In this document: piece after piece, positions 675 to 62,152 of the stretch
How positions within the stretch are numbered: the first letter of the stretch is position 1
How the letters are laid out: each line of letters begins with the position of its first letter
Assembly (NCBI GenBank): GCA_963840745.1
Contig: CAWJAC010000006.1
Span: 33,947 to 97,946, forward strand
Direction of reading: 5' to 3'
Source: Candidatus Zambryskiibacteriota bacterium
Lineage (GTDB): Bacteria; Patescibacteriota; Minisyncoccia; Phycocordibacterales; WO2-35-19
Length of the DNA: 64,000 nucleotides
Made by a program: the position numbers and the translations under genes
Notes under the pieces: generated by a model
What the model saw: the letters and a program-made list of their open reading frames with translations, nothing else
Database searches by the model: none
Told to the model about the DNA's origin: nothing

Positions 675-2849
675 TTATTTTTTCTTTTGCCATCTGCCAC
701 GGCTGACTTTTTTGGGCTCGCGCAAGATTTCGAGAGCGCGGGGGAAAGTGATGGTGTAGACATCATCTGTTTTGAGCGAGCGAAAATCTTTTTGATGCAC
801 AATGTAAGGGCCGAAGCGGCCGATATTTGCTGAAATCATTTCGTGAGTTTCAGGATGTTTACCCAATTCTCTCGGCAAGCTCAAATATTTGACAGCTTCT
901 TCAAGTGTCACTGATTTTGGATCTTTGTCTTTGGGTATGCTAGACCGGCTCGGTTTTTTATTTTTTTCATCTTTAACCCCGAGCTGTACATAAGGCCCAA
1001 ACCTTCCATCCATCACAAATATCGGCAATCCTGTGGCGGGATCTGCACCGATCGTCTCAGCTTCTTTTATTTCACTGCCATCTATATTTCTCATACCTTT
1101 ACAGTCAGGAAATTTTTCGCAACTCAGAAACTTTCCTCCTCTGCCGAGTTTTATTATCATATCTGATCCACAGATTGGACACTTAATTTTGGGATCAGCA
1201 TCACCCAACGTAGTGAGCTTAGCGGTTTTTTCTTTTTCTTTAACATCTTTCAAAAAAGGTTTGTAAAATTCGCGCAGTGTCGGCTCATACTCCCTCTTGC
1301 CGTCGGCGATTTGGTCAAGCTCATCTTCCATTTCGGCAGTGAAAGTGTCGCTTATGTAATTCTCAAAATTATTTTCCAAAAATGTAGACACCACATCGCC
1401 GACATCTGTCGGCTTGAGAGTCCGGCCGTCTTTTTCTACATAACCTCGCTCTACGATAGTGCCGATGATGGAAGCATAAGTGGAGGGTCGGCCGATGCCT
1501 CTTTTCTCCAATTCTTTTATAAGCCCGGCTTCGCTGTATCTGTTTGGCGGCTCGGTTTGCTTTTTTTCATTATTTAAATTAAGTAAAGATAGAGGATCGT
1601 TTGCTTTAACTTTTGGCAACAAAACATCTTCACCTTTGGCTTGCGGATCTGCCAAAAGCCAACCGCTTTTTATAACGCGCGATCCGTTGGCGACGAAATC
1701 GGGAATCGTATCAACAGCTGCGATAATTTTAGTCCTCATTATCTCAGCATCCTTCATTTGAGAGGCGACGGCTCTCTGCCAAATGAGAGCATAAACCCTT
1801 TTTTGGTCATCGGTTGTGCCGCAATTTTCTTTATCGAAATGTGTTGGGCGAATAGCCTCGTGCGCTTCCTGCGCATTTTTAGATTTAGTTTTGTAAGTGC
1901 GGAATTGATGCATTTCTTCTCCGAACTTTTTTACCACTGCACCTTTGATTTGCCCCAAGGCCACAGACGCCATATTTAAGCTGTCGGTACGCATATAAGT
2001 AATATGTCCGGCTTCATAAAGTTTCTGGGCTGTCATCATTGTGCGTTTTGGTGAAAAGCCAAGCCGAGTGGAAGCCGCTTGTTGCAAAGTGGAAGTAGTA
2101 AATGGCGCATAAGGAGCCCTTTTGGCCGCCGTCTCTACCACGTCTTTGACAGACCATTTCCCGTTTTTTGCCACATTATAAATTTCATCTGCCTCTTTTT
2201 TTGTTTTTGGTTTTTCTTCGCACTCAACTATAATTTTTTCTTTTTTTTCTGTCTCAACATCTGCGCTTATTACAAAAAAAGTTTCCGGTTTAAAGGCTCT
2301 GATTTCTCTTTCTCTTTCCATTAATATTCTCAGAGCGGGGGATTGAACCCGGCCGGCCGAAAGCCCGTATCTAACTTTTTTCCAGATCAGTCCCAGACGA
2401 GATCATAACCCACCAAGTCGGTCCAAAACTCTCCTGGCCTCCTGAGCCTTTCTCAAATTTTGGTCAATGGCGCGAGGGTGTTTGAGCGCTTCTTCAATCG
2501 CTTCTTTGGTTATCTCATGATAAGTAACTCTTTGGGGTTTTATATCAGAATCTTTTTTTAAAATTTCGGCTAAGTGCCAGGCAATAGCTTCTCCTTCTCG
2601 ATCGGGGTCAGTGGCAAGCAGTATTTCGTCAGCCTTCTTGGCTAACTGTCTTATTTCTGCCACCACTCTTTCTTTGCCTTTTGAAATTTCATAATGGGGA
2701 ATAAAACCGCCTTCTATATCGATGGCCTTTTTGTTTGACTTGGGCAAATCGCGGACATGGCCAACACTGGCGACCACGGTATAATCGCTACCGACATACT
2801 TGCCGATAGTTTTGGCTTTGGCTGGTGATTCAACGATCAGTAATTTCAT
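675..2849 (-). CDS. topA: DNA topoisomerase I, interrupted by one in-frame TGA as assembled
   Basis: ORF 2403-2849 has the TOPRIM domain (MKLLIVESPAKAKTIGKY, DPDREGEAIAWH). ORF 675-2321 has the core plus C-terminal zinc ribbons (KCPICGS, FLSCEKFPDC). Both are in the same frame. The gap 2322-2402 is open and reads SRLGLIWKKVRYGLSAGRVQSPALRIL. Confidence 0.9.
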
Positions 2850-5099: not shown

Positions 5100-5120
5100 C
5101 ACCCCCGGACTTCGTCTCGA

Positions 5121-5141: not shown

Positions 5142-5182
5142 TAAAAAAGATAGAAAAATAAAAATTCTCCACTTAATATTTC

Positions 5183-5997: not shown

Positions 5998-6008
5998 TAG
6001 GGGGTGAT

Positions 6009-9676: not shown

Positions 9677-10737
9677 ATGAATTTTTGGCAAAAAATGAAG
9701 AAACCCATTTTGTGTTTGGCGCCCATGGCCGATGTCACTGACGTGGCTTTTAGATTTATTATTGCTAAGTATTCGAAAGAATTGCAGAAGGTGCCCTTCT
9801 GCAATTATGTAACTTACACAGAATTTGTTTCGGCTGATGGGCTGGTGAGAGCGCCGGAGGCAGGTCGCAAGAAACTTTTGAAAGATTTGGAATATTCTGA
9901 AATTGAAAGACCTATTGTAGCTCAGTTTTTTACAAGCAAACCTGAAATGATGGAAAAGGCGGCGGCCTTGGCGGTTGAGCTTGGTTTTGACGGCATTGAT
10001 ATAAATATGGGCTGCCCAGATAAAAGTATTGAAAAGCAAAATGCCGGCGCGGCCTTAATGAAGAACTCTGAATTGGCTAGAGAAATAATTTTGGCGGCAA
10101 AACAGGGCGCCGGTAAATTACCGGTGTCGGTCAAGACTAGGGTTGGCTATAACAAAGATGAATTAGAAACATGGTTGCCAGAATTACTTGCTGAAAATCC
10201 GGCGGCGATAATTATTCATGCCCGCACTCGCAAAGAGATGTCTAAAGTGCCGGCTCAGTGGGCGCGCATAGCGCGGGCAGTTGAAATTCGTAATGATATA
10301 CAGAATTCAGAAAAATCAGAAAACATTGTTCCTGCGTCGGGTCTAAGGATAAGGCTCTTGAAACAATATTTTCTGATTTTTCTTTTCGAACTTTAATAAT
10401 AGGAAACGGTGATGTTGAAAATGTTGAAGATGCGATTAAAAAATGCGAAGAGAGCGGAGCCGATGGGGCAATGCTTGGTAGAGCAGTTTTTGGCAACCCG
10501 TGGTTATTTGCGGATTATCAGCCTACACTCGAAGAAAGGATTAAAGTTCTGTTGGAACATACCAAAACTTTTGAAGAAAAATTCAGCGGAGTAAAAAGTT
10601 TTGCTATTATGAAAAAGCATTTCAAAGAGTATTTGAAAGATTCTAACCTGAGAGACTTGAGATTTAAGCTCATGAAAGCCGAAAATTCTAAAGAAGTTGA
10701 GGAAATAATTTCAAATTTTGGGTTTCCAACTGAGTAG
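9677..10737 (+). CDS. dus: tRNA-dihydrouridine synthase, reading frame broken by an 80-nt hairpin insert
   Basis: ILCLAPMADVTD, GIDINMGCP, VKTRVG in ORF 9677-10396. IIGNGDVENVEDA...GADGAMLGRAVFGNPWLF is in a different frame (open from 10285). Removing 10310-10389 joins them in frame. Confidence 0.85.
10310..10382. other. Hairpin element copy 1: 21-bp stem (10310-10330 / 10362-10382) with a 31-nt conserved loop
   Basis: Arms gaaaaatcagaaaacattgtt / aacaatattttctgatttttc are complementary except one C/A, which is a G-U on the minus strand. The loop contains ctgcgtcgggtctaaggataaggctcttga. Confidence 0.75.
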
Positions 10738-11322: not shown

Positions 11323-11365
11323 TAACTATAACCTGAATTAATTGTTGAGTGTTAAATGTGAGATA

Positions 11366-11390
11366 CCCCTCCCTTAAAGTAAGGGAGGGG
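11366..11390. repeat. CCCCTCCCTTA-N3-TAAGGGAGGGG palindrome (family copy d)
   Basis: Perfect 11-bp arms. Confidence 0.8.
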
Positions 11391-12807: not shown

Positions 12808-12895
12808 TAACAAAATCATTTTCCACAGCAAAAACACGGCTAGAATAAGGGCTAAAATGACAATCCACAAAAAGACCCAAAATTGCTTTCAATAA
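12808..12895. repeat. Island module copy B (promoter part degenerate)
   Basis: cacagcaaaaacacggctagaataagggctaaaatgacaatccacaaaaag aligns with copies C and D. Confidence 0.7.
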
Positions 12896-13954: not shown

Positions 13955-14063
13955 CGAACAATTTTATTTTCAACAGCAAAAATACGGCTAAGATAATGGA
14001 TAAAATGGTAATCCACAGGAAAACATCAAAAATCGCTTGACAGAATTTTTAGTGCATATATAC
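13955..14063 (+). promoter_or_regulatory. Island module copy C (complete): conserved block plus TTGACA-16-TATACT promoter
   Basis: -35 at 14036-14041, -10 at 14058-14063. The upstream block aacagcaaaaatacggctaagataatggataaaatggtaatccaca is shared with copies B and D. Confidence 0.65.
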
Positions 14064-14896: not shown

Positions 14897-14919
14897 CAGC
14901 ACACCCAAGACCCCTCGCA

Positions 14920-15511
14920 TTTAGAGGGGTCTTAATTTGTCTCTAAAAAATTTTAGTATATTTTCGTAAGGTTCAGAAAGCTTGTAAGCCTTTTTGTAAT
15001 CTTCGCTGTATTTTATATCAGCAACTATTTTAAGCATATCAGGTTCATCTTCAAAAACTTTACGAAGTACGGCGAATACCAATATATGAGAGTTAACCGT
15101 ATCGCTATCTCCTTTTACAAGTAAAAAATCGTTATTTATTTTAAATAAATCTTTATTGGAAGCTAAAAGTCTGTGAGTAAGTTCGTGGGTGAGAAGTGAC
15201 TATAAAATTTTTAGGACCTTTGTGAGAACTAATTATTAATGGATTAGACATATCGCGATTAACTCCAGCAACTGCATAAACATTAATATCTTCCTTAAAG
15301 GACAAGTCCAGAGCAGAACAAATTCCATTTAGAACTTTCTCTTCATATTTAGCCCATATATCTTTATAAGCCTGTATCCTTTTCTCCATTTTTTCTTTAT
15401 CTGGAGGAACCCACCTTTCCATCCAGAACTTTTTACGTCAGGACTATTTTTTACATAAAAGTTAAAAAATGGTTCTAAAAGTTTGCCGTGTTGTATTATA
15501 ATCTTTACCAT
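14920..15511 (-). pseudogene. HExxH (HELTH) metallopeptidase-like gene with two frame changes
   Basis: MVKIIIQHGKLLEPFF... then FWMERWVPPDKEKMEKRIQ... then LTHELTHRLLASNKDL...KFFRDKLRPL, read in three frames. Confidence 0.5.
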
Positions 15512-15574: not shown

Positions 15575-15650
15575 GAACAAAATTATTTTGATAGTCTAAA
15601 ATACGGCTAAGATAATGGATAAAATGGCAATCCACAAAAAGGGTTCAAAA
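15575..15650. repeat. Island module copy D, left part (separated from its promoter part by the IS)
   Basis: ctaaaatacggctaagataatggataaaatggcaatccacaaaaag. The promoter part resumes at 16673 (cttgacag...). Confidence 0.7.
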
Positions 15651-23475: not shown

Positions 23476-24144
23476 TTAATCAAGAGTGTCAAAGGTTCCC
23501 TTTGACACTATCCTTTTATATAATTTTGTGTTTTCATTTATGAAATTTTTGGTGCCCCCAAATATTTCGGTTAGAAATTGTTTGTGAACTATATGGTTTT
23601 TTCTATCAAAAATAAAATCATTATAACTGCTCCATTTGTATTCTTGCGGTTCATTCACAACTTTATCTTTTACTGGGTTCATATGAATATAGGAAGAGAT
23701 GAGCATCAATTGCGGATCAGTTTTTATTGGTACAGCTTTGAAAGCATCTTGAAAAACATGCCCAACTCTTTTGTGTTTTAGGTTTATGTATTTGGAGAAA
23801 CTGGTAAATACTTTTAATACAAGTTTTGAAATTGATTCCTCCCCACATTGTTCTATTAAAAGATGTATGTGATTTGGCATTAAACAGAAAGCATGTAATT
23901 TAAAACTTTTTGATTCTAAACTTTCTATTCTTATCCTTGATTTGGGGGATTTGGTTATTTCACTTTTATTTAAATCTCCTTTTTCAATCCCAAGACCCAA
24001 CCCTAATCTGAAAAGGAAAGCTCGATAGTCCTGTTCATCGCGGAATATGATCTCCTTGTTATTCCCACGGTTATAAAGATGATATATAGAACCTTTGGCA
24101 AAGTTTTTATAATCTCTGTTTCCCATACCATAGTTATACCACAA
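23476..24144 (-). CDS. IS200-like Y1 transposase of the REP-associated (RAYT) type
   Basis: FCLMPNHIHLLIE (HUH motif) and SSYIHMNPVK (catalytic Tyr region). Flanked on both sides by the same hairpin. Confidence 0.8.
   Translation of the reverse strand: MWYNYGMGNRDYKNFAKGSIYHLYNRGNNKEIIFRDEQDYRAFLFRLGLGLGIEKGDLNKSEITKSPKSRIRIESLESKSFKLHAFCLMPNHIHLLIEQCGEESISKLVLKVFTSFSKYINLKHKRVGHVFQDAFKAVPIKTDPQLMLISSYIHMNPVKDKVVNEPQEYKWSSYNDFIFDRKNHIVHKQFLTEIFGGTKNFINENTKLYKRIVSKGTFDTLD
23485..23509. repeat. REP hairpin, left of RAYT: agtgtcaaagg ttc cctttgacact
   Basis: Perfect 11-bp arms. Overlaps the RAYT stop region (codes VSKGTFDTL). Confidence 0.85.
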
Positions 24145-24150
24145 ATAGAA

Positions 24151-24172
24151 GTGTCAAAGGTTCCCTTTGACA
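24151..24172. repeat. REP hairpin, right of RAYT: gtgtcaaagg ttc cctttgacat
   Basis: Same core as 23485-23509; 9-10 bp arms. Confidence 0.85.
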
Positions 24173-24229
24173 TCTTTCGGTTATAGCAAATCTTGTGCTT
24201 GGGCGCACAGTTAGTGTTATAATAATTTT

Positions 24230-25684: not shown

Positions 25685-26467
25685 AAGATCTGACAACAAA
25701 AGTAAAAATAACGTGGTGCCCGGGTTGCCCAAACTCGCAGATTTTGGTTGCTTTCAGGCAAGCCGTCAAAGAGTTGGTTGAAAATGGTAATTTAAATATT
25801 GAGAATCTGGTGGCTTTCGCTGGTATAGGCTGTCATGGCAAAATTTCAGATTATATAAATATCAATTCTTTCACATCTCTCCATGGTCGGCTCATTCCGG
25901 CTATGACAGGCGCCAAATGCGCCAATCGGAACCTGACCATTGTCGGCTTTTCCGGTGATGGCGATTCTTACGACGAAGGCATTGAACATTTGATTCACGC
26001 CGCTAAAAGAAATTCAGATATAAATCTTTTTGTTCATGACAATCGTGTTTTTGCTCTGACTACCGGCCAATTTGATGCCATGAGTCCCAAGGGATTTAAA
26101 AGCAAATCAACCCCATTTGGCAGTATTGAAGAGCCATTTAACCCGCTGCTCCTCATGCTTGCCTCTGGAGCCACATTTGTGGCGCGCACTTATGCTGGAG
26201 ATATTTCCGGCACAAAAAAAATAATGCAGGCCGCTATTGCTCACAAAGGATTTTCATATGTGGATATTATTCAGCCTTGTCTTACTTTTTACGATACTCG
26301 AGATTATTTTAAGAAAAAGGTTTATTGGCTGCACGGAAGATTTTCCCAAATACGATCTGAAAGCGGCAATGGAAAAAGTGCAGGAAAATGAGGACGAGAA
26401 AGTTCCGCTGGGAATATTTTATGAAGTACAAAAACCGACATTTGAAGAAGAATTATGGAAAATTTAG
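25675..26467 (+). CDS. 2-oxoacid:ferredoxin oxidoreductase beta (TPP-binding) subunit, one frame change near 26320-26340
   Basis: WCPGCPNSQIL, GIGCHGK, GDGDSYDEG. The C-terminus EDFPKYDLKAAMEKV...FEEELWKI continues in the frame of ORF 26237-26467. Confidence 0.8.
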
Positions 26468-28470
26468 AAAAATTTTTTAATCCTAAATCGGTCGCAGTTA
26501 TCGGAGCAAGTTCTGATAAAAATAAAGTTGGCTTTGCTTTGATGGCGAATCTGCTTGCCGGCAAGAAGAGGGAAATTTATCCTATTACTCTGGGCGAAAA
26601 AGAAATACTCGGCATTCCTGCTTTTGTCTCGGTTTTAGATGTATCTGAAAAAATTGATTTGGCTATTATTGCCGTCCGGGCCGATATTGTGCCTCAAGTG
26701 TTGTCCGACTGTGGTAAAAAGGAAATACCAAATATCATTGTTGTCTCGTCAGGTTTTAAAGAAATAGGTCCGGCAGGCAAAAAGCTTGAAAATCAAATTG
26801 CAGCCATAGCCAAGCAAAACAACATGACAATTTTAGGGCCAAATTGTCTTGGAGTTATTGATACAAAAAATGATTTGAATGCCTCCTTTTCTCCGCAAAA
26901 ACCACTTGCCGGAAAAATCGCTCTTTTGTCTCAATCGGGCGCTTTGGGCACGGCAATGCTCGACTGGGCTATCGGCGAAGGGGTCGGTTTTTCAAAATTT
27001 GTAAGTTTGGGCAATGAGGCACAGCTGACAGAAATAGATTTCCTTAAGTTTTTGAAAGATGACGACGATACGGATTCCATTTTAATTTATTTGGAAAAAG
27101 TTAGCGATGGTCCGGAATTAATGCGTCTTTTAAAATCAATAACACCAAAAAAGCCGGTTGTCATACTCAAAGCCGGAGTGAGCGATTATGGAGCTTCTGC
27201 CATTATGTCCCACACTGGCTCTTTAGCGCCGGAATCCAGAGTTTTTACTGCTGCTTGTCAGCAAGCCGGTGCCATTATGGTGCCTTCGCTCCGCAAGTTT
27301 TTTAATATTTCCAAACTCTTATCACTTGGAGTCAAGGTAAACGCGCCCATTTCGCGCCTCATAGTTTTGACCAATGGAGGCGGACCATCCGTCATTGCTG
27401 CCGATGAGATCGGACTTTCCCGTTCCTTGTCTTTGGTTTCAATTCATGAAGATGTCAAAGAGAAATTAAGAGGGGTTCTACCGAGCATGGCGGCGGTCGG
27501 CAATCCTGTCGATATAATAGGCGATGCCTTGGCGGAACGATACGAAAAGGCTCTCGATATTTTATGCGGTGTCAAAGATGCAGACGGCATTATCGTAATG
27601 CTCACTCCGCAAATGATGACCGAGGCGGAAGCGACGGCTCATTTGCTTTCAAAATATAAAAATAAGAAAAAAATATTTCCAGTATTTATTGGCGGTCCAT
27701 CTATACAAGCTGGCCGTAGTGACTTGCTGCAGTCTGGCCTTGTTAATTTTGCTTTTTCAAAAGATGTGGTTTATGGGTTGGACAGCTTGGCAAACTATGC
27801 TCCAAAAATTTTGCTGTCAAAGACGGCCTTTGTCTTTGACAGTGTCTCTCAGATGCCATTTGAAGATATGACTAAAATTTTAGGTGAATATAATATTTCA
27901 ATAAAAGGAAAATTCATAAACAGAAAAGAAGATTTAGAAAACGCTCTCAGAGAATGCGGAGAAGGTCCTTATGCTATGAAAGCCATATCAAATAATATAG
28001 TTCACAAAATTGATGTTGGTGCTGTCAAGTTAAATATTTCAAATTTGGAAGAAGCTAATGTTGTTTGGGAAGAAATGTGGCAAAAATTTGTGCAGCTGGA
28101 TGGCATATTGATTCAAAAAATGGCTGAGGGCAAGGAAGTTATAATTGGTATGAAAAGAGATGCAACATTTGGCCCAACAATTCTTTTTGGTTTGGGTGGC
28201 ATTTTGGCAGAAGCTATAAAGGATACCGCTTTGCGAATTGCTCCTATAGAAAAAGAAGAAGCCTTTAAAATGATGCAAGAAATAAAAGGCATCAAAATAT
28301 TACAAGGTATGCGTGGCGAGCCGCCCGTAAATTTTGATTTGCTTGCTGATATTATCATAAATCTCTCTCGCCTCGCTCTTGACCATCCCGAAATAAAAGA
28401 AATAGACCTCAATCCCGTCATAGCCGCCGAATCTTCTGCGGCTATTGTTGATGTTAGATTAATGATTTAA
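26455..28470 (+). CDS. ADP-forming acetyl-CoA synthetase (fused alpha/beta; CoA-binding plus ATP-grasp)
   Basis: 671 aa. FNPKSVAVIGAS, SQSGALG, HTGSLA, then the C-terminal ATP-grasp part. Confidence 0.8.
   Translation: MENLEKFFNPKSVAVIGASSDKNKVGFALMANLLAGKKREIYPITLGEKEILGIPAFVSVLDVSEKIDLAIIAVRADIVPQVLSDCGKKEIPNIIVVSSGFKEIGPAGKKLENQIAAIAKQNNMTILGPNCLGVIDTKNDLNASFSPQKPLAGKIALLSQSGALGTAMLDWAIGEGVGFSKFVSLGNEAQLTEIDFLKFLKDDDDTDSILIYLEKVSDGPELMRLLKSITPKKPVVILKAGVSDYGASAIMSHTGSLAPESRVFTAACQQAGAIMVPSLRKFFNISKLLSLGVKVNAPISRLIVLTNGGGPSVIAADEIGLSRSLSLVSIHEDVKEKLRGVLPSMAAVGNPVDIIGDALAERYEKALDILCGVKDADGIIVMLTPQMMTEAEATAHLLSKYKNKKKIFPVFIGGPSIQAGRSDLLQSGLVNFAFSKDVVYGLDSLANYAPKILLSKTAFVFDSVSQMPFEDMTKILGEYNISIKGKFINRKEDLENALRECGEGPYAMKAISNNIVHKIDVGAVKLNISNLEEANVVWEEMWQKFVQLDGILIQKMAEGKEVIIGMKRDATFGPTILFGLGGILAEAIKDTALRIAPIEKEEAFKMMQEIKGIKILQGMRGEPPVNFDLLADIIINLSRLALDHPEIKEIDLNPVIAAESSAAIVDVRLMI
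27814..27842. repeat. REP-like palindrome inside the acetyl-CoA synthetase ORF: ctgtcaaagac ggccttt gtctttgacag
   Basis: Perfect 11-bp arms. Core TGTCAAAG shared with the RAYT-flanking REPs. Translated in frame as LSKTAFVFDS. Confidence 0.75.
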
Positions 28471-32729: not shown

Positions 32730-32831
32730 GTTTAAAATATACTTTTTTCAAAATATTGCAACAACGTTAATTTTTGGTACAATAATCAAATCATTGAAAA
32801 TAAGTATTATAAGTGAGATAAAGTGGCTGGC

Positions 32832-32906
32832 TCCGCGGTGGCGCAGCGGTAGCGCAGTCGCCTGTTAAGCGATTGGTCGTTGGTTCGAATCCAACCCGCG
32901 GAGCCA
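32832..32906 (+). tRNA. tRNA-Asn (anticodon GUU), CCA encoded
   Basis: Hand-folded cloverleaf: acceptor tccgcgg/ccgcgga, D stem gcgc/gcgc, anticodon stem gtcgc/gcgat with loop cuGUUaa, T arm gttgg-ttcgaat-ccaac, discriminator g, cca. Confidence 0.9.
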
Positions 32907-33032
32907 GCCACTTTATCAAAAGCAAGAGTTAATTCAGGGAATTTAATTTAAATCAAAATTAATTTGCAACAATAGAAATATTATGGTTAAATCACATCAG
33001 GTCTGATCTTTGACCTAGAAAGGATGTGGTGT

Positions 33033-39787: not shown

Positions 39788-40129
39788 ATGTTCAAAATGC
39801 TGTGTTTGCCGGTTCTTTTAATTGTCGGTTTGGTATTTGGCCAAGAGAAAGTGATGCCGCGGGTTGCCTCGGTTGGACCAGCCAGTGGCCAGGCTGGAGA
39901 CACATTAACTGCGTCGGGGGAGAACCTCGACCAAACTAATGTAGCCGAGCTTCGTCTGACTGATGGCACTAATGACTTCAAGATTGTCATTGTCAGTCAG
40001 ACGACAACTACCATCAAGTTTAAGATTCCGGATGAAATCAAACCGGGTCGGTACGGTCTCGTGACCATATCAGCCAAGAGGACTCCTCCTCTTGAGATCG
40101 AGCAACCTGTTAAGGTTACGGTCAAATGA
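39788..40129 (+). CDS. Small secreted IPT/TIG-like domain protein
   Basis: Signal MFKMLCLPVLLIVGLVFG. SVGPASGQAGDTLTASGENL...IKFKIPDEIKPGRYGLV. AAAGGAG SD. GC-richer by eye. Confidence 0.6.
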   Translation: MFKMLCLPVLLIVGLVFGQEKVMPRVASVGPASGQAGDTLTASGENLDQTNVAELRLTDGTNDFKIVIVSQTTTTIKFKIPDEIKPGRYGLVTISAKRTPPLEIEQPVKVTVK

Positions 40130-46959: not shown

Positions 46960-47851
46960 TTATTTTTGGCCACGGAGGAAATCTTCAAAAGGCATTTCTT
47001 TTTTACCTTCAGGTATAACTGAAAGTATTTTTAGTGAATCATTTTCCAAAGTTGCATCTGTAATAATCACCCTCATTTTTTTTCCATTTCTTTCAAGGAA
47101 AAAATAAGCCGTCGGCCACTCTTCAAAAGCTTTTATTTTTAAAAGATTTTGATAAGCGTCTTTTTCTAGATTACTCAAATCAATTTGAAGCTCACCGTCT
47201 TCTTTTTCTACTTTTTTGCATAAGGTTGCCTTGCTTTCATCCTGCGCTGTTAGTTTAATTTTCCCATCTAACCATTCTGGCAAAATTTGAGCGAATAATT
47301 TTGCACCTTCTATGGCCAATATTTTTTCGAGTTCTTTTCTATTTGGAATTTGGAATTTGTCATTTGAAATTTCCAGTTGTCGTGCAACGACAACTGGTCC
47401 TGTATCCATCCCCTCATCAATTTGCATAATGGTTACTCCAATCTCTTTTTCATCATTCAAAATTTGGCTTTGAATGGGGGAGGCGCCGCGATATTTTGGC
47501 AGGAGGGAAGGATGAATGTTTAAAGTTTTATGCTCAGGGATTTCAAAAATTTCTTTGGGAATTATTTTACCGTATGAGGCAACAAGGAAAAGATTATAGT
47601 TATTTGGATGACAGATTATAGATAAGAGAAGCGTTATCTTTTTTTAGAGAGACAGGATTGATAACTTCAATATTGTTATTTTGTGCCCAGACTTTTACTG
47701 GTGTCGGAGTGAGCACCAATTTTCTTCCTTTTGGTTTATCTGGCGTAGTAATAACAAGCTCAGGCAAAATACCACGAGCTCTTAATTCATCTAGAACATA
47801 AACACTAAATTGTGAACCTCCAAAAAATACCCAGTTTATTTTATTTGTCAT
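46960..47851 (-). CDS. fmt: Methionyl-tRNA formyltransferase, one frame change near 47610-47645
   Basis: N-terminal VFFGGSQFSV. After a frame switch: LFLVASYGKIIP...LNIHPSLLPKYRGASPIQ...IMQIDEGMDTGPV. Confidence 0.85.
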
Positions 47852-48464: not shown

Positions 48465-50390
48465 TCACAATAAATTATTGGGGTCTACTTTTAGTTCAAA
48501 GTGGGGAGGGAGAGATTTTAAAATTGCTAGCAAATTTTGATCTACCCATTTTTCTTTAGGCAATTTTATGACAGCATTAACGGCTGATTGCTCACCTCGT
48601 TTTTCGTGAGTAGAGGGAAAGATAGCTGGGTTGTAATCTTTAAAAATATTTTTTAAATTTTCAGATTCTTTAGCCACGAAATTTCTAGTACCCCTGACTG
48701 TTATTTTTATAAAAATACCGAATGGCGGATAGCCCAAAACTTCTCGGTCCTCTATTTCTTTTTTATAAAATTCTATAAGGTTGCCACTTACAGCAAATTC
48801 CACAGTAGGATCATTTGGATTGCGAGTTTGTATTAAAAAATTTTCTTTGGCTATATTTTTGGTCTGTACAATTAGGCGAAATATTTTTTCTCTGATGCAA
48901 AAGTCTGGGATAGAGAAAAGGGAATCAAAAGAAGCTATAGCAGTAGTCGCCACTTTTTTTCGGAGGAATGAGAAAGCCATTTCAGTGCCCAAAAGCACTC
49001 CGCCTCTGTTTTCATAAAACTTTTCCGCAGTGGCAGATGCTTTAGTATCGGTTGGAGTGATGTCTTTGTGGATTTCAAAAAGATTTATGTTTGGAATGCT
49101 TTTCCTTATCTCATCAGCTACTCGGTCTAGCCCCGCGCCAAAGGCCGCCAGTTTCCAGCTGCCGCAATTTTGGCAGACCTCGGCTGCATCGCGCATCTCT
49201 CCGCATTGATGGCATTTAAAAGCGCCACCGTCCCTTGTCTTATATAAAATCATAGGCGACGAGCAGTTGTTGCATTTGACTTGCTCGCCGCAATCGCGGC
49301 AGACAGTGACAGAAGAGAGACCTTTCCTAGCGGCAAAAATAAACATATTAGAGCTTTTTTCCGTGTTTTCTTTTATCATATTCAGCAATTCCGGAGATAA
49401 AGTTTTAAATTCTTTTCCTTGCCCTGAACTTGTCGAAGGGTCTTTCTTGCTTGATTCTCTCAAATCCACTACCTCTGTTTTAACTTCAGACGGCAGTCTC
49501 CATTTGACGCTTTCAAACTCTCCGACTTCTCCTTGTTTGTATCTATACAAAGTTTCTGTTCGGAGGAATGAATCCCCAATTACTGCGCGTATATTTTTTT
49601 TGTTCGCCAAAATCTCGGCAAAAAATCGCAGATCCATGAACGGCCGTGATAAAGTTTTCCAACCGTTTTCATTTTCTTTGTCTATAATCACAGTGCCAAA
49701 ATCATTTCTTGGCAAAAATAGCCATTTAGCGGTGGCGATGACGAGTATCGGATGCGGAGTCAAACAAGCTTTTTTCCATTCCTCTTTCAGTTCTTTTTTG
49801 TTCATTTCATTATGGAAAGAGCAGACGAATAATTCTATGCCGCGTTCCAAGTTTTCTTTGATGAGTTTGACGTCTTCATTTTGCGGCAGGCAGAGAAAGA
49901 CCGATCTTTTTTTAGCAAACTCTTCTCTGATAAGCGATCTGTAGAGAGACAGTCTTTCTTCGTCCGGAGCCTGAAGCACAGTCACTTCGTTTTTGGTGTT
50001 GTCAAAGACGGTCTTTGACAGTTGTCCCGAAAAGACTGTCTTTGACAACACGCTTGGATTTTCCAAAACAAAAGAAGGAATTAATTGGGACAAAACGCTT
50101 CCTTGGTTGGTAGCAAAATATTCTGCCGTTTCTTTGACTACCTCCAAAAATTCTTTTTGCAAAAATGGTTTGGCTGTGACGGCTGAAATTTTTTTGAGCT
50201 GGAAATCGGCTGACTTTATTTCAGATTTTGCTTCTGTGACATCTCGGCTCTCTAAAACCAGTGCTGATACTGCTTTGCTTCTAATATTTATTTTGACGAG
50301 AGAACCTGGTTCCAAATATTTTGGTCCGAAGTAGGAGAGTGATTCCTTATTCAACCCCTTTGAAAATGGGAGACATTCGATAATAAACAT
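48465..50390 (-). CDS. priA: Primosomal protein N' (PriA helicase)
   Basis: 641 aa. Cys-rich zinc region CRDCGEQVKCNNCSSPM...CHQCG...CQNCGS and helicase-like core. Confidence 0.8.
   Translation of the reverse strand: MFIIECLPFSKGLNKESLSYFGPKYLEPGSLVKINIRSKAVSALVLESRDVTEAKSEIKSADFQLKKISAVTAKPFLQKEFLEVVKETAEYFATNQGSVLSQLIPSFVLENPSVLSKTVFSGQLSKTVFDNTKNEVTVLQAPDEERLSLYRSLIREEFAKKRSVFLCLPQNEDVKLIKENLERGIELFVCSFHNEMNKKELKEEWKKACLTPHPILVIATAKWLFLPRNDFGTVIIDKENENGWKTLSRPFMDLRFFAEILANKKNIRAVIGDSFLRTETLYRYKQGEVGEFESVKWRLPSEVKTEVVDLRESSKKDPSTSSGQGKEFKTLSPELLNMIKENTEKSSNMFIFAARKGLSSVTVCRDCGEQVKCNNCSSPMILYKTRDGGAFKCHQCGEMRDAAEVCQNCGSWKLAAFGAGLDRVADEIRKSIPNINLFEIHKDITPTDTKASATAEKFYENRGGVLLGTEMAFSFLRKKVATTAIASFDSLFSIPDFCIREKIFRLIVQTKNIAKENFLIQTRNPNDPTVEFAVSGNLIEFYKKEIEDREVLGYPPFGIFIKITVRGTRNFVAKESENLKNIFKDYNPAIFPSTHEKRGEQSAVNAVIKLPKEKWVDQNLLAILKSLPPHFELKVDPNNLL
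49996..50051. repeat. Nested REP-like palindromes inside priA
   Basis: gtgttgtcaaagac (49996-50009) pairs perfectly with gtctttgacaacac (50038-50051). Inner tgtcaaagac / gtctttgaca at 50000-50020. Translated as LSKTVFSGQLSKTVFDNT. Confidence 0.75.
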
Positions 50391-50462
50391 ACAAAGATTG
50401 TGGCAGAGATTTATACAAAGCTCAAGATTGCCGAATGTCGGAGTGTCTTGTAGTATTTGAGC

Positions 50463-51476
50463 ATGGCATTTTTCTCTAAAAAATTGGGCATTGATCTGGG
50501 TACGGCTAATACTCTAGTTTTCGTGCCGGGCAAGGGGGTGGTTTTAAACGAGCCTTCGGTGGTCGCTATTTCTCTTGAAGACAACAAAATTTTGGCGGTT
50601 GGCAATGAGGCAAAAACAATGATAGGCCGTACACCAAAAGCCATAGTCGCTTACAGGCCGATGAAAGATGGCGTGATCGCTGATTATAAAGTAACGGAGG
50701 TGATGCTTTCTTATTATATGAAAAAAGCCTTGGGCGGCTGGCAGTTTATAAAACCGGAAGTGCTGATTTCAGTGCCGGCGGGAGTGACTTCTACCGAACG
50801 GCGAGCGGTGATAGAAGCAGCCATGAAAGCGGGAGCCAAGAACGCTTATGTGGTTAAAGAGCCAATACTGGCTGCCATCGGAGCCGGCATTCCCATTTAT
50901 GAAGCCAAAGGTCACATGGTGGCCGATATTGGCGGAGGCACTACCGATGTGGCGGTGATATCGCTCGGCGGCATTGTTTCGGCCACTTCAGTAAAATGCG
51001 CCGGCAACAAAATTGACGAAAGCATAACTGATTACGTAAAAAAAACTTTCAATCTGGCCATTGGAGATAAAACAGCTGAAGATATAAAAATTAAAATAGG
51101 ATCAGCTTTGCCTATAGACGAAGAACTCTCCATTGTCATAAAAGGCCGGGATCTTATTTCGGGTCTGCCGCGATCGGTTGAAATAAAAACCAACGAAATT
51201 GTGAAAGCAATTTCAAGAGAATTGAGGGAAATAATAAAAGCAATCAAAGACGTCTTGCAGGAAACACCGCCGGAATTGGCGTCAGATATAATGGACGAAG
51301 GACTCATTATGACCGGAGGAACTTCTGCTCTTCGAAACCTTCCTGAACTGGTTTTCAGAAGGGTTGGGGTAAAAGCCATCATGGCAGAAAATCCTCTTTA
51401 TTGTGTTGCCAAAGGCACCGGTATTGCTCTAGAGCATCTGAATGCTTATAAAAGAGTGATTGTCGCCAAAAGATAA
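50463..51476 (+). CDS. mreB: Rod shape-determining protein MreB (paralog 1)
   Basis: LGIDLGTANTLV, DIGGGTTDVAVISLGG, MTGGTSALRNL. Confidence 0.9.
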   Translation: MAFFSKKLGIDLGTANTLVFVPGKGVVLNEPSVVAISLEDNKILAVGNEAKTMIGRTPKAIVAYRPMKDGVIADYKVTEVMLSYYMKKALGGWQFIKPEVLISVPAGVTSTERRAVIEAAMKAGAKNAYVVKEPILAAIGAGIPIYEAKGHMVADIGGGTTDVAVISLGGIVSATSVKCAGNKIDESITDYVKKTFNLAIGDKTAEDIKIKIGSALPIDEELSIVIKGRDLISGLPRSVEIKTNEIVKAISRELREIIKAIKDVLQETPPELASDIMDEGLIMTGGTSALRNLPELVFRRVGVKAIMAENPLYCVAKGTGIALEHLNAYKRVIVAKR

Positions 51477-55084: not shown

Positions 55085-56152
55085 ATGTTCAAAGAGAAAT
55101 TGGAGCAATGGAAACGCGTTTTGCGCAATGATATAGGTATTGATTTGGGAACGGCCAATATGCTGGTTTATGTGCGCGGCAAAGGCATCATCTTAAACGA
55201 GCCCTCGGTGGTTGCCGTCAATCAAAAAACCGGTCAGGTCGTCGCTGTCGGAGCGGAAGCAAAAAATATGCTCGGCCGAACGCCGCCGCACATTATCGCG
55301 GTGCGGCCCATTGTTGATGGAGTTATTTCTGATTTTGAAGTAACGGAAGAAATGATTCATTACCTTTTAAACAAAGCTCAAGCGATATCAAAAAAAATAT
55401 TAGGACCGAGAGTGGTAGTAGGAGTGCCTTCCGGTATTACCAATGTGGAGACAAGAGCAGTCAGAGATGCTACCAGAAATGTTGGGGCCAGCGAAGTGCA
55501 CATAGTAGAAGAGCCTATGGCGGCTGCTATTGGCATGCACTTGCCAATAAACGAACCTATTGGCAATATGGTTATTGACATAGGGGGCGGCACGGCTGAT
55601 ATTGCCGTCATATCTTTGGGGGGTGTTGTCAGTTCTAAAAATGTGCGCATCGCCGGAGACAAATTAAATAATGACATTGCTTCTTATATAAGAAGCGAAT
55701 TTAAAATAGTTATTGGAGAAAAAACGGCTGAAAGCATTAAAATAGCCATCTGCTCTCTTTTGCCGGAAGAATCTCCGCTCGAGACATCTGCCAGAGGTCG
55801 GGATCTTATCACCGGACTGCCGCGGGAAGTGGTGGTCACTGATTCCGATGTGAGAGATGCAGTTTCGCGTTCAATTGAAAGGCTGGTTGAAGCTACCAAA
55901 GAAGTACTGGAAATCACTCCGCCGGAAATACTTTCTGATATTATGCATCGCGGCATTTATCTTGCCGGCGGGGGTGCTCTTATAAAAGGGTTTTCCAAAG
56001 TTTTGGAACAAGAAATAAAAATACCGGTTTATATTGCAGATGATCCTCTAACTTGTGTGGTTCGCGGTACCGGCATAATTTTGGAAAAACTTGAGAAGTT
56101 CAAAGAAATATTAATTACTGATGAAAATGACATTTCTAATAAAGCATACTAA
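55085..56152 (+). CDS. mreB: Rod shape-determining protein MreB (paralog 2)
   Basis: IGIDLGTANMLV, DIGGGTADIAVISLGG, LAGGGALIKG. Confidence 0.9.
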   Translation: MFKEKLEQWKRVLRNDIGIDLGTANMLVYVRGKGIILNEPSVVAVNQKTGQVVAVGAEAKNMLGRTPPHIIAVRPIVDGVISDFEVTEEMIHYLLNKAQAISKKILGPRVVVGVPSGITNVETRAVRDATRNVGASEVHIVEEPMAAAIGMHLPINEPIGNMVIDIGGGTADIAVISLGGVVSSKNVRIAGDKLNNDIASYIRSEFKIVIGEKTAESIKIAICSLLPEESPLETSARGRDLITGLPREVVVTDSDVRDAVSRSIERLVEATKEVLEITPPEILSDIMHRGIYLAGGGALIKGFSKVLEQEIKIPVYIADDPLTCVVRGTGIILEKLEKFKEILITDENDISNKAY

Positions 56153-60670: not shown

Positions 60671-62152
60671 ATGGCTTCTTTGGAAGAAATCCGTGCCGCT
60701 AGGTTAAAAAAACTAGAGACTCTTAAAGGAATGGGTGTTGATCCTTATCCCGCAAAAACAGAGAGGGATTTTGAAATTGGGAAATTAGTAGAAAACTTTG
60801 AAAAATTACTGAACGAAAATAAAAAAGTAACCATTGCCGGCAGAATAATGGCTCTGCGGGCCCAGGGGGCGATTATCTTTTGCGATCTTTTTGACGGTAC
60901 CCATTTGACAGGCTCAGGGCAAGTGGGTAAGTTCCAAATATTATTAAAAAAAGGCGAGGGGGTTGATGAAAAAAGTTTTGATTTATTTTTGGAGGTGGTT
61001 GATATAGGAGACTTCATTCAGGCGACTGGCACTCTTTTTACCACCAAAAGGGAAGAAAAGACTCTCCAAGTTTCCAGTTGGAAAATGCTGACCAAAAGCT
61101 TGCGGCCGCTGCCCGAGAAATGGCACGGTCTTACCGATATAGAAGAACGTTATCGTAGAAGATATTTGGATTTTTTGATGGATAGCGAATTGCGGGATTT
61201 GATCGTCAAAAAATCCAAATTTTGGGATGTGACACGCGAGTTTATGAAAAAAGAAGGATTTTTGGAAGTGGAAACACCAACACTGGAACTGACAACCGGC
61301 GGGGCAGAGGCAGAACCGTTCAAGACGCATCACAACGATTTTGATTTGGATATGTATCTGCGCATTTCGGTCGGTGAGCTATGGCAAAAAAGGCTCATGG
61401 CGGCCGGTTTCCCCAAGACTTTTGAAATAGGCAGAATTTATAGAAACGAAGGCAGCAGCCTGGAACATTTGCAAGAATTTACCAATATGGAATTTTACTG
61501 GGGCTATGCTGACTACCGCGACGGCATGGAACTGGTAAAAAGACTTTATAGAAAAGTAGCTCAGGAGGTTTTTGGTAAAACAAAATTTACCACTCGCGGA
61601 CACACTTTTGATTTGGCGGATGAATGGGTTTTGATTGATTATACCGAAGAAATGAAAAAACAAATAAGCATCGATATAAATACCGCTACTGTAAAAGAAA
61701 TGGAGAAAAAGTTGGATGAACTTCATATAAAATACGAAGGTGAAAATAAAGAACGCCTGACAGATTCGCTTTGGAAATATTGCCGTAAAAATATTTCAGG
61801 CCCGGCCTTTTTGATCAATCACCCTGTTCTTATTGCACCTTTGGCAAAATCAAATCCAGATGGAAAGACTGTCCAAATGTTTCAGCCGATAATAGCCGGA
61901 AGTGAAATGGGCAGGGGATATTCGGAACTCAATGACCCAATGGACCAAAAATTGCGTTTTGAAGCTCAGCAAAAATTGATTGATTCGGGAGACAAAGAAG
62001 CCATGATGCCCGACTGGGAATTTGTAGAAATGCTCGAACATGGTATGCCTCCCACATGTGGATTTGGTTATCCAGAGAGACTCTTTGCTTTTCTCGCGGA
62101 CAAACCCGTCCGTGAACTGCAAACTTTCCCTCTCATGCGTCCGAAAGAATAA
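60671..62152 (+). CDS. lysS: Lysyl-tRNA synthetase (class II)
   Basis: 493 aa. ERYRRRYLD, FLEVETP, IGRIYRNEG, PPTCGFG. Confidence 0.9.
   Translation: MASLEEIRAARLKKLETLKGMGVDPYPAKTERDFEIGKLVENFEKLLNENKKVTIAGRIMALRAQGAIIFCDLFDGTHLTGSGQVGKFQILLKKGEGVDEKSFDLFLEVVDIGDFIQATGTLFTTKREEKTLQVSSWKMLTKSLRPLPEKWHGLTDIEERYRRRYLDFLMDSELRDLIVKKSKFWDVTREFMKKEGFLEVETPTLELTTGGAEAEPFKTHHNDFDLDMYLRISVGELWQKRLMAAGFPKTFEIGRIYRNEGSSLEHLQEFTNMEFYWGYADYRDGMELVKRLYRKVAQEVFGKTKFTTRGHTFDLADEWVLIDYTEEMKKQISIDINTATVKEMEKKLDELHIKYEGENKERLTDSLWKYCRKNISGPAFLINHPVLIAPLAKSNPDGKTVQMFQPIIAGSEMGRGYSELNDPMDQKLRFEAQQKLIDSGDKEAMMPDWEFVEMLEHGMPPTCGFGYPERLFAFLADKPVRELQTFPLMRPKE

What the first reader, a model, noticed from the sequence alone, without database searches (positions are those of the whole stretch)
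49996..50051. Nested REP-like palindromes embedded in frame in priA create an LSKTVF tandem duplication
**Seen in the sequence**
- gtgttgtcaaagac (49996-50009) is the perfect reverse complement of gtctttgacaacac (50038-50051).
- Between them, tgtcaaagac/gtctttgaca (50000-50020) forms a second palindrome.
- PriA reads through this as ...VLSKTVFSGQLSKTVFDNTKNEV..., with LSKTVF twice.
- The opposite strand reads SKTVFD as well, because of the palindromy.
- The same TGTCAAAGAC core occurs at 27814-27842. It is closely related to the REPs flanking the RAYT gene.

**Inference**
This is an in-frame REP-derived insertion in an essential replication-restart helicase, about 56 nt of strong secondary structure.
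Basis: partly seen in the sequence, partly recalled or inferred. Interest (0 to 1): 0.6.

Follow-up and report, generated by a model that had tools for sequence, protein, structure and literature searches.

The report
In-frame REP hairpin inside priA
A 56-base DNA hairpin from a family of small mobile palindromes (REPs, which flank a transposase gene in the same genome) sits in frame in a floppy linker of the PriA protein of a Zambryskibacteria-type (CPR) bacterium. This kind of selfish-DNA decoration of proteins is already known, but here it comes from a new family in which more than half of the sampled copies lie inside genes.

Summary
Window 49996-50051 is a 21-bp stem (one mismatch) with a 14-nt loop, and it contains the perfect palindrome TGTCAAAGAC-G-GTCTTTGACA. 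The minus-strand priA reads through it as VLSKTVFSGQLSKTVFDN.

It is a REP/REPIN-like element.
- The unit TGTCAAAG-N5-CTTTGACA flanks a RAYT-like HUH transposase in the window (23476-24144).
- In a metagenome contig whose RAYT is 81% identical, the flanks are the priA palindrome itself or its loop-flipped form.
- 17 homologous long hairpins in related genomes show compensatory change at 14 of 19 stem pairs and share a conserved loop.
- They lie in priA, holB-like and other ORFs and between genes, in both orientations.

- The LSKTVF repeat is a by-product of an inverted repeat whose arms are self-complementary. It is not a tandem duplication.
- There is no net 18-codon indel. The element fills a hypervariable linker of about 25 residues. 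Sister PriAs, up to 90% identical elsewhere, carry other hairpins or none there.
- This PriA lacks the Walker A and B motifs.

In-frame REPs and Rickettsia RPEs, many of them in replication and repair genes, are already described. This is a new family of a known kind. Its effect on PriA is probably neutral.

The parts
48465..50390 (-). priA-like gene (641 aa). It has the 3'-DNA-binding domain, the Cys-rich zinc region and the C-terminal domain, but the Walker A and B motifs are degenerate.
   Evidence: ORF list. Pfam PriA_3primeBD. NCBIfam priA models E about 1e-67, below cut-off. Alignment to K. pneumoniae PriA 4nl4, with LQAPDEERL in place of GxGKT and IIDKENE in place of IDEEHD.
49996..50051 (.). 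Long hairpin (REP doublet, REPIN-like). On the coding (minus) strand it reads GTGTTGTCAAAGACAGTCTTT / loop TCGGGACAACTGTC / AAAGACCGTCTTTGACAACAC, and it encodes VLSKTVFSGQLSKTVFDN.
   Evidence: I1 (21-nt arms, 95% complementary, 14-nt loop). Folds. Homologous to 16 other elements (alignment A2).
49996..50016 (.). One stem arm of the long hairpin (3' arm on the coding strand).
   Evidence: I1.
50017..50030 (.). 14-nt loop. It is related to the loops of L012 and L016 (14 nt) and to the 17-nt family loop TGGGACCGGGGCAKTTY.
50031..50051 (.). Other stem arm of the long hairpin (5' arm on the coding strand).
   Evidence: I1.
50000..50020 (.). Complete single REP unit TGTCAAAGAC-G-GTCTTTGACA (perfect 10-1-10 palindrome). 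The same 21-mer or its loop-flipped form occurs in uvrA-like and uvrC-like ORFs of L076, in priA of L010, and flanking a RAYT in L147.
27814..27842 (+). Second in-frame family member, CTGTCAAAGAC-GGCCTTT-GTCTTTGACAG, read as LSKTAFVFDS. It lies in the inter-domain linker of an acetyl-CoA synthetase (ADP-forming)-like ORF (26455-28470).
   Evidence: The L003 orthologue has an unrelated variable linker here.
23476..24144 (-). RAYT-like Y1/HUH transposase gene (HUH = NHIH, Tyr motif YIHMNP). Its C-terminus, VSKGTFDT, is the translated REP.
   Evidence: Pfam Y1_Tnp E = 1.8e-10. NCBIfam REP_Tyr_transpos E = 1.3e-18 against IS200 0.005. 996 homologues, some named RayT by JGI. Motif counts.
23485..23509 (.). 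REP flanking the RAYT and overlapping its 3' end: AGTGTCAAAGG-TTC-CCTTTGACACT.
   Evidence: D13.
24150..24173 (.). REP flanking the RAYT just upstream of its start: (AG)TGTCAAAGG-TTC-CCTTTGACA.
   Evidence: D13.
2142..2151 (-). Isolated single arm TGTCAAAGAC inside topA. It may be a remnant or a chance match and is not claimed as a family member.

Best explanation
The feature is one copy of a REP/REPIN-type palindromic element family that is associated with a RAYT (REP-associated tyrosine transposase) gene in Zambryskibacteria/Paceibacteria (Patescibacteria, CPR).

The basic unit is the palindrome R-TGTCAAAG-N5-CTTTGACA-Y. The priA copy is the doublet form: two units arranged so that the whole folds into a stem of about 20 bp with a 14-nt loop.

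It lies in the short, poorly predicted (probably unstructured) linker between the 3'-DNA-binding domain and the helicase-like core of PriA. It is translated because its length is a multiple of three and two of its three frames are open in either orientation.

The LSKTVF...LSKTVFD repeat arises because in this copy the inner stem (GAC-N-GTC) is itself self-complementary, so both arms read alike.

Shown:
- family membership;
- association with the RAYT;
- in-frame copies at many sites;
- DNA-level complementarity kept through double-sided changes;
- turnover at this site between close relatives.

Inferred:
- The elements are moved or exchanged by the RAYT on single-stranded DNA, as for E. coli TnpA-REP and IS200/IS605 'peel and paste'.
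- The priA linker is repeatedly occupied because it tolerates any peptide, and possibly because a resident hairpin attracts the next one.
- The encoded peptide is functionally neutral for PriA.
For: 1. RAYT link.
- The window RAYT-like ORF is flanked by GTGTCAAAGG-TTC-CCTTTGACA.
- tblastn finds RAYT homologues (58-81% identity) bracketed by TGTCAAAG-N5-CTTTGACA on L147, L120, L113, L186 and L102. One L147 flank is exactly the priA 21-mer and the other is its loop-flipped form.
- 74 of 120 RAYT homologues end in xSKxxF[DE], which is the REP translated, including VSKTVFD.
- In L023 the RAYT-adjacent REP shares a 14-mer with that genome's priA hairpin arm.

2. Family.
- 17 long hairpins from 10 genomes align without ambiguity (A2).
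- 97.2% of cells are paired, 14 of 19 pairs change on both sides, and covariation is 0.62 against 0.22 in shuffles (0 of 500 reach it). Slid controls pair at 49% or less.
- The loop is conserved.

3. Mobility or exchange.
- The L002 priA copy differs by 1 nt from an intergenic copy in the same locus.
- Copies occur in both orientations.

4. In-frame copies elsewhere.
- They occur in holB-like, Dus-like, UvrA-like, UvrC-like and other ORFs.
- In a metagenome scan, 71 of 132 sites lie inside ORFs of at least 100 aa: 63 in the xSKxxFDx frame, 8 in the CQRxSLT frame, and 0 in the frame closed by TGA.

5. Permissive, high-turnover site.
- The alignment of 120 PriAs shows a hypervariable linker.
- Sister proteins 80-90% identical outside the linker carry different hairpin types or none.
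- Unrelated hairpin families occupy the same linker in distant PriAs: L004, L007, L042, L043 and L076.
- In the AlphaFold model, residues 103-142 have pLDDT below 50, and DSSP assigns no secondary structure to residues 116-143.

6. No alternative signal. Rfam finds nothing there, and there is no promoter or terminator match at the hairpin.
Against: - There is no net insertion relative to the nearest orthologue: 54 nt against 54 nt. 'Insertion' has to be read as insertion plus loss, or as replacement.
- The RAYT-flanking REP in this window (centre GGTTCC) is not identical to the priA copy (centre GAC-N-GTC).
- The RAYT scores below NCBIfam's curated cut-off (67 against 80 bits).
- No GTAG or CGTC tag is present.
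- Transposition was never observed. Several elements sit at orthologous positions in different genomes, which vertical inheritance with compensatory change could also explain.
- The structure model is of low overall confidence (mean pLDDT 65), so 'disordered linker' is only weakly supported.
Confidence: 0.82

Rival explanations
1. The hairpin is a selected functional nucleic-acid element. It could be an mRNA structure that slows translation or stabilises the transcript, or a DNA cruciform or protein-binding site. It would be kept at this position in priA and at other fixed positions by natural selection. The RAYT association would be incidental or a domesticated maintenance system.
For: - Hairpins lie at the same linker in many PriAs, with stems kept by double-sided changes.
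- Some intergenic copies occupy orthologous positions directly after a TGTGnTATAAT-like box and before a start codon (L007, L015, L023).
- The same proteins carry the palindrome at the same residue with different centres in different metagenomes.
- The RNA fold is very stable, -31.9 kcal/mol.
Against: - Many orthologues, including the closest (P0002, 82.5% identical outside the linker), have no hairpin.
- Sister PriAs carry unrelated hairpin types, and the element occurs in both orientations.
- G-U pairs make up only 8 of the 17 non-Watson-Crick cells, about what random transitions would give. Nothing therefore points to RNA-level selection.
- There is no Rfam family and no promoter or terminator context.
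Confidence: 0.1
2. It is an ordinary replication-slippage tandem duplication of a 27-nt segment of priA (LSKTVFSGQ / LSKTVFDNT), unrelated to mobile DNA. The palindromy would then be a coincidence of the duplicated codons.
For: There is a 27-nt direct repeat, 17 nt at 94% identity (D3). The peptide LSKTVF occurs twice.
Against: - The direct repeat covers only the first 18 nt of each 27-nt unit, whereas the inverted repeat covers 20 of 21 positions.
- In 16 homologous elements the inverted repeat is conserved and the direct repeat is not.
- The same 21-mer occurs in unrelated genes and flanking RAYT genes.
Confidence: 0.03
3. It is an assembly or consensus artefact: a collapsed or chimeric repeat in a metagenome-assembled genome.
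For: The source is evidently a MAG contig, and palindromes can cause mis-assembly. A probable frameshift exists nearby in fmt.
Against: - An independent Logan assembly carries the identical sequence while differing elsewhere by 19 mismatches and 10 gaps in 9.6 kb.
- The reading frame is intact.
- Homologous hairpins occur at the same site in many independent genomes.
Confidence: 0.02
4. The repeated peptide xSKxxFD is a selected short linear protein motif, and the DNA palindromy is a consequence of it.
For: 63 of 71 intragenic copies use the xSKxxFDx frame. The motif is also the C-terminus of most RAYT homologues.
Against: - Copies occur between genes and in a second frame, as CQRxSLT.
- Every family copy read here spells the outer-arm residues as TCA-AAG and TTT-GAC, with no synonymous codons. 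The metagenome copies cannot test this, because they were selected by that DNA pattern.
- The centre varies so as to keep complementarity, not to keep the amino acids.
Confidence: 0.03

Closest known systems
REP / REPIN - RAYT systems (E. coli TnpA-REP, Pseudomonas REPINs; Bertels & Rainey, PMC3116915, PMC3337134)
   Same: - Short palindromic units are dispersed in the genome.
- A doublet form folds into a longer hairpin.
- A Y1/HUH transposase gene is bracketed by the same palindromes.
- Some copies sit at orthologous positions in related genomes.
   Different: - There is no GTAG or CGTC tag.
- The elements are shorter: 21-nt units and 54-57-nt doublets.
- 54% of the sampled copies are intragenic and translated, whereas classical REPs are mostly extragenic.
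- The RAYT is below the NCBIfam cut-off.
- The phylum (Patescibacteria) is not covered in the papers found.
Intragenic GTAG/CGTC REPs of Opitutus terrae, Thauera, Rickettsia and others (Di Nocera et al. 2013, PMC3733652)
   Same: - Single REPs encode 7-8 residues and dimers about 15-24 residues inside functional ORFs.
- Many host genes act in replication and repair (uvrA, helicases, polymerases).
- Here the hosts include priA, uvrA-like, uvrC-like and holB-like genes.
   Different: - The sequence family is different and has no tetranucleotide tag.
- priA is not among the hosts listed in the held supplement.
- There is repeated occupancy and turnover at one linker across a whole clade.
Rickettsia palindromic elements (RPEs; reviewed in PMC10969869)
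   Same: Selfish palindromic DNA is inserted in frame into housekeeping genes at sites compatible with protein function.
   Different: - RPEs are about 100-150 bp, are not known to be linked to a RAYT, and belong to alpha-proteobacteria.
- The present units are 21-57 nt and are RAYT-associated.
IS200/IS605 insertion sequences and their non-autonomous derivatives (PATEs)
   Same: A Y1/HUH transposase has similar hairpins at both ends of its gene. The presumed mechanism acts on single-stranded DNA, which would allow precise excision and reinsertion.
   Different: The protein matches the RAYT model far better than the IS200 model (E = 1e-18 against 0.005). The dispersed copies are bare hairpins, not IS ends.

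Membership tests
REP/REPIN-RAYT system | A short palindromic unit repeated at many loci | tested here: met
   TGTCAAAGAC occurs 6 times in the window against 0.1 expected. There are 4 palindromic sites in 64 kb. The whole-genome copy number in the source organism was not measured.
REP/REPIN-RAYT system | A Y1 transposase gene of RAYT type flanked by the same palindromes | tested here: met
   Window 23485-23509 and 24150-24173 bracket ORF 23476-24144. The same arrangement occurs on L147, L120, L113, L186 and L102.
REP/REPIN-RAYT system | HUH motif and catalytic tyrosine (YxHxNP) in the transposase | tested here: met
   NHIH and YIHMNP are present in the window protein. They occur in 120 of 120 and 116 of 120 homologues respectively.
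REP/REPIN-RAYT system | The protein reaches the curated NCBIfam REP_Tyr_transpos (NF047646) cut-off | tested here: not met
   67.3 bits against a cut-off of 80, E = 1.3e-18. It is still the best model by far. JGI names several homologues RayT.
REP/REPIN-RAYT system | A conserved GTAG or CGTC tetranucleotide at one foot of the hairpin (Di Nocera superfamilies) | tested here: not met
   GTAG occurs in 3 of 131 flanks and CGTC in 3 of 131. The foot is R-TGTCAAAG instead.
REP/REPIN-RAYT system | REPIN architecture: two REPs forming a longer hairpin with a spacer | tested here: met
   A 19-21-bp stem with a 14- or 17-nt conserved loop is seen in 17 elements. The 3' half of the window element is a complete REP unit (I6).
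REP/REPIN-RAYT system | Predominantly extragenic location | tested here: not met
   71 of 132 sites lie inside ORFs of at least 100 aa. Both non-RAYT sites in the window are intragenic.
REP/REPIN-RAYT system | Binding and cleavage or mobilisation of the REP by the RAYT | not testable with these tools
   This needs biochemistry or population data. The only indirect evidence is near-identical copies at two sites in L002.
Rickettsia palindromic elements (RPE) | In-frame insertion into functional ORFs | tested here: met
Rickettsia palindromic elements (RPE) | Element of about 100-150 bp belonging to the RPE sequence families | tested here: not met
   Lengths here are 21-57 nt. Sequence similarity to RPEs was not tested.
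IS200/IS605 transposase | Match to the IS200 family model | tested here: not met
   NF033573: E = 0.005, 17 bits against a cut-off of 55.
PriA replication-restart helicase (host gene) | 3'-DNA-binding domain and Cys-rich zinc region | tested here: met
   Pfam PriA_3primeBD. Four CxxC pairs align to 4nl4.
PriA replication-restart helicase (host gene) | Walker A (GxGKT) and Walker B (DEEH) ATPase motifs | tested here: not met
   LQAPDEERL and IIDKENE stand at the aligned positions. LQAPDEER-like sequence is conserved across 120 homologues.

The most novel reading that the evidence does not exclude
The hairpins are not merely tolerated junk. In Paceibacteria a RAYT-hairpin system would operate as a fixed-site cassette exchanger: resident hairpins in permissive linkers of housekeeping genes (priA, holB, uvrA, fmt and others) are repeatedly excised and replaced in frame. 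This would keep strong DNA/RNA hairpins at defined positions in replication and repair genes, where they may have been co-opted, for example as replication or translation pause sites or as RAYT landing pads. It would also make the RAYT a domesticated maintenance enzyme.
Probability: 0.1. Interest if true: 0.75.

Novelty: new member of a known kind. Interest (0 to 1): 0.45.

Why it matters
The result shows that REP/RAYT-type selfish DNA exists in the streamlined genomes of CPR/Patescibacteria. With little intergenic space available, more than half of the sampled copies survive as translated insertions in flexible linkers of core proteins. That explains part of the odd linker insertions and hypervariable segments seen in CPR housekeeping proteins. 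It warns annotators and structure predictors that such peptides (xSKxxFDx, GTGAVQ and the like) are DNA-driven. It also offers a natural data set, with the same linker occupied by different hairpins in close relatives, for studying how RAYTs choose targets. For PriA itself the element is probably neutral.

Tried and rejected
- Rfam scan of the whole window found only tRNA-Asn and nothing at the hairpin.
- The promoter/terminator scan around the site gave no signal at the hairpin.
- The tandem-duplication model was rejected because the inverted repeat, not the direct repeat, is the conserved feature.
- The expected indel of about 18 codons was not found. Linker length is similar with and without a hairpin (84 nt in the window against 66-96 nt in hairpin-free loci anchored the same way).
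- GTAG/CGTC tags are absent.
- RNA-level selection is not indicated, because G-U pairs are not enriched.
- Direct phmmer of the RAYT against PDB TnpA-REP (4er8) was only marginal, E = 0.21, so membership rests on profile models.
- A first regex scan for loop motifs missed most copies because the pattern was too narrow. It was redone.
- A first full-length MAFFT run timed out and was redone on N-terminal parts.
- Literature searches for RAYT/REPIN together with Patescibacteria or Parcubacteria found nothing.
Full report
**1. Observation**

- GTGTTGTCAAAGAC (49996-50009) and GTCTTTGACAACAC (50038-50051) are perfect reverse complements.
- TGTCAAAGAC-G-GTCTTTGACA (50000-50020) is a perfect palindrome.
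- The repeat finder extends the outer inverted repeat to 21-nt arms (49996-50016 / 50031-50051, 95% complementary) around a 14-nt loop. It also reports a 27-nt-period direct repeat.
- The 10-mer occurs 6 times in the window against 0.10 expected.
- The segment folds at -18.6 kcal/mol as DNA (z = -5.1) and -31.9 kcal/mol as RNA (z = -6.6).
- The minus-strand ORF 48465..50390 (641 aa) reads through it as ...NPSVLSKTVFSGQLSKTVFDNTKNEV....
- An independent Logan assembly (L082) is 99.63% identical to the window over 9.6 kb, with 19 mismatches and 10 gaps elsewhere. It has the identical hairpin, so an assembly artefact is unlikely.

**2. The host gene**

- The ORF is PriA-like: Pfam PriA_3primeBD, NCBIfam priA models at E about 1e-67 but below cut-off, and an alignment to K. 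pneumoniae PriA 4nl4.
- In that alignment, LQAPDEERL stands where Walker A should be and IIDKENE stands where DEEH should be. The same degenerate sequence is conserved in 120 homologues from Zambryskibacteria/Paceibacteria.
- The hairpin encodes residues 113-131.
- An AlphaFold model (mean pLDDT only 65) has pLDDT below 50 for residues 103-142, and DSSP assigns no secondary structure to residues 116-143.
- This is the short connector between the 3'-binding domain and the helicase-like core, where longer PriAs carry their winged-helix domain.

**3. The linker in orthologues**

- An alignment of 120 PriAs shows conserved blocks (LIPSFILEN ... LQAPDEER) around a hypervariable segment of about 25 residues.
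- Many orthologues carry peptides there that look like translated palindromes: LSKGTFWDRDSLKVPFD, LSKTPFLGQLSKGVFD, PRGGLEENFLRPPLR, FPKVAPSKNFLRCHLRK and PRSDLKMPQSQRSDLG.
- I fetched 79 priA loci from GTDB genomes and folded the linker DNA.
- The linkers of L001, L002, L004, L007, L010, L012, L016 and L023 form hairpins with z between -3.7 and -8.
- The linkers of L003, L005, L008, L014 and most distant loci do not.
- The window element has the same architecture as those of L012 and L016 (19-bp stem, 14-nt loop).
- It is related to a 17-nt-loop type (loop TGGGACCGGGGCAKTTY) in L001, L002, L023, L015 and L081.
- L010 carries a single unit, GTTGTCAAAGAC-C-GTCTTTGACAAC, read once as LSKTVFD.

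**4. It is a repeat family, not a priA peculiarity**

- The same long hairpins occur in a holB-like ORF, a Dus-like ORF, a 469-aa ORF and intergenic DNA of the same loci, in both orientations.
- In L002 the priA copy differs by one loop nucleotide from an intergenic copy 4 kb away.
- Seventeen elements align cleanly (A2).
- On that alignment the 19-bp stem is 97.2% paired and 14 of 19 pairs change on both sides. The covariation score is 0.62 against 0.22 in shuffles (0 of 500 reach it), and slid controls pair at 49% or less.
- G-U pairs account for 8 of the 17 non-Watson-Crick cells, roughly what random transitions would give. Nothing therefore points to RNA-level selection, and complementarity is most simply read as being kept at the DNA level.
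- Single 21-nt units identical or nearly identical to the priA inner palindrome lie in frame in UvrA-like ORFs (L071, L076) and a UvrC-like ORF (L076).

**5. Link to a transposase**

- Window ORF 23476-24144 matches Pfam Y1_Tnp (E = 1.8e-10).
- It matches NCBIfam REP-associated tyrosine transposase (E = 1.3e-18, 67 bits, cut-off 80) far better than IS200 (E = 0.005).
- It has HUH (NHIH) and YIHMNP motifs.
- It is bracketed by GTGTCAAAGG-TTC-CCTTTGACA at 23485-23509 and 24150-24173.
The centres are strongly non-random (ACCGT 22, ATGCC 21, AGACA 17).
- tblastn finds RAYT homologues of 58-81% identity bracketed by this palindrome on L147, L120, L113, L186 and L102.
- In L147 one flank is TGTCAAAGACGGTCTTTGACA, the priA sequence, and the other is its loop-flipped form TGTCAAAGACCGTCTTTGACA. 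A third copy of the priA form lies in frame in a 667-aa ORF on the same contig.
- The RAYT has 996 homologues, some named 'REP element-mobilizing transposase RayT' by JGI. 74 of the best 120 end in xSKxxF[DE], the translated REP.

**6. Intragenic bias and frames**

- Of the 132 metagenome sites, 71 lie inside ORFs of at least 100 aa.
- 63 use the frame xSKxxFDx, 8 use the frame CQRxSLT, and none use the third frame, which is closed by TGA in CTTTGACA.
- More generally, the 1.33 Mb of related loci contain 217 perfect hairpins with stems of at least 11 bp, against 8 in shuffled sequence. 92 of them are well inside ORFs of at least 150 aa.
- Several unrelated hairpin families contribute, and unrelated hairpins occupy the same PriA linker in L004, L007, L042, L043 and L076.

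**7. Insertion, duplication or replacement?**

- The direct repeat is a by-product. Across the 17 elements, inverted complementarity is 15-19 of 19, while the best direct identity ranges from 9 to 16. It is highest in the window only because its inner stem GAC-N-GTC is self-complementary.
- There is no net indel. Between CCAAG(C/T) and ACCAAAA, the window and its closest orthologue L080 (P0002, 82.5% identical outside the linker) each have 54 nt, and these are unrelated in sequence.
- A neighbour-joining tree without support values, together with pairwise identities, shows a patchy distribution.
  - The window (14-nt-loop type), P0002 (no hairpin) and P0004 (17-nt-loop type in the opposite orientation) are mutual nearest relatives.
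  - P0017 and P0020 are 90.3% identical outside the linker yet carry unrelated linkers.
  - P0009 looks like a decayed copy of the P0011 element.
- The site therefore experiences turnover (gain, replacement, decay) rather than one ancient insertion.

**8. Mechanism (inferred)**

- By analogy with E. coli TnpA-REP and IS200/IS605 (my own knowledge, not tested here), the RAYT would recognise the hairpin in single-stranded DNA and cut and rejoin at its foot.
- That would allow insertion, precise excision and exchange.
- Copies persist in ORFs only where the length is a multiple of three, the frame is open and the protein tolerates the peptide. This explains their location in linkers.
- A resident hairpin may itself attract the next event, which would explain replacement without a change in length.
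- Nothing indicates a benefit to PriA.

**9. Comparison with what is known**

- Intragenic, translated REPs are described. Singles encode 7-8 residues and dimers about 15-24. [quoted passage not shown] 2013, PMC3733652).
- Rickettsia RPEs are the classic in-frame case (PMC10969869).
- REPINs are two inverted REPs that form a long hairpin and are mobilised by RAYTs (PMC3337134).
- The present family differs in four ways:
  - it lacks GTAG/CGTC tags;
  - it is shorter;
  - 54% of the sampled copies are intragenic;
  - it occurs in Patescibacteria, for which I found no report.
- priA is not among the hosts listed in the held supplement of the 2013 paper.

**10. Verdict**

- This is a new family of a known kind of element.
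- Interest is moderate. The individual finding is ordinary selfish DNA. The breadth of in-frame hairpins in CPR core genes and the turnover at a fixed linker are worth a dedicated survey.

Noticed in passing
window 48465-50390 (protein residues 139-147 and about 233-240): The PriA-like protein lacks Walker A (LQAPDEERL in place of GxGKT) and Walker B (IIDKENE in place of IDEEHD). The same holds in about 120 Zambryskibacteria/Paceibacteria homologues. It retains the 3'-binding domain and the zinc-binding cysteines, so it may be an ATPase-dead PriA.
   Followed up: partly
window 46963-47851 (fmt): The methionyl-tRNA formyltransferase gene is split between two frames. Residues 1-83 are in frame -1 (47851-47603) and residues 67-302 are in frame -2 (47655-46963). 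The break lies in the stretch 47603-47655, which contains a T7 run. It is either a frameshift or an assembly error.
   Followed up: partly
window 9780-9806, 47373-47397, 39951-40004, 61163-61220: Other perfect hairpins (stems of 11-15 bp) overlap coordinates of listed ORFs and have unrelated sequences, for example CCAGTTGTCGT-GCA-ACGACAACTGG in fmt (only the first two were confirmed well inside an ORF). In the related genome L027, fmt carries a different in-frame hairpin a few residues away.
   Followed up: partly
window 5119-5142, 5973-5998, 11365-11390, 14906-14933: A family of GC-rich, terminator-like hairpins, ACCCC(C)TCTTA-NNN-TAAGAGGGG(G)T, lies outside or at the ends of the listed ORFs. 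In related genomes, similar CCCCTCTCC...GGAGAGGGG hairpins sit inside ORFs and are read as ...SPLSFARRGAGGE....
   Followed up: partly
window 32817-32917: tRNA-Asn (32832-32906) is enclosed by a perfect 22-nt inverted repeat (GATAAAGTGGCTGGCTCCGCGG / CCGCGGAGCCAGCCACTTTATC). The repeat extends the acceptor stem into the leader and trailer, about 15 nt upstream and 11 nt downstream of the called gene. It may be a processing stem.
   Followed up: no
window 12808-12883, 13956-14031, 15575-15650: Three copies of a 76-nt repeat (75-80% identical) lie in the ORF-poor stretch 12.7-16.7 kb. On the minus strand they read like N-terminal transmembrane segments of paralogous small proteins (D1).
   Followed up: no
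L007 8193-8248, L015 7756-7809, L023 8218-8274: Family hairpins lie at an orthologous intergenic position, directly after a TGTGnTATAAT-like box. In L007 and L015 an ATG (MFNF...) follows within 1-3 nt; in L023 none is visible in the 20 nt shown. They would form the 5' end of the transcript of the downstream gene. Their stems differ between genomes but stay complementary.
   Followed up: no
RAYT homologues P0121-P0240; window 23476-23509: 74 of 120 RAYT homologues end in xSKxxF[DE], so the downstream REP is translated as the C-terminus of the transposase. The centre varies between lineages: AA, GT, GA, SD, GI, TV, VP.
   Followed up: partly
window 50457-51476 and 55085-56152: Two mreB paralogues lie 4.6 kb apart (an 80-nt stretch is 76% identical, D4).
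   Followed up: no
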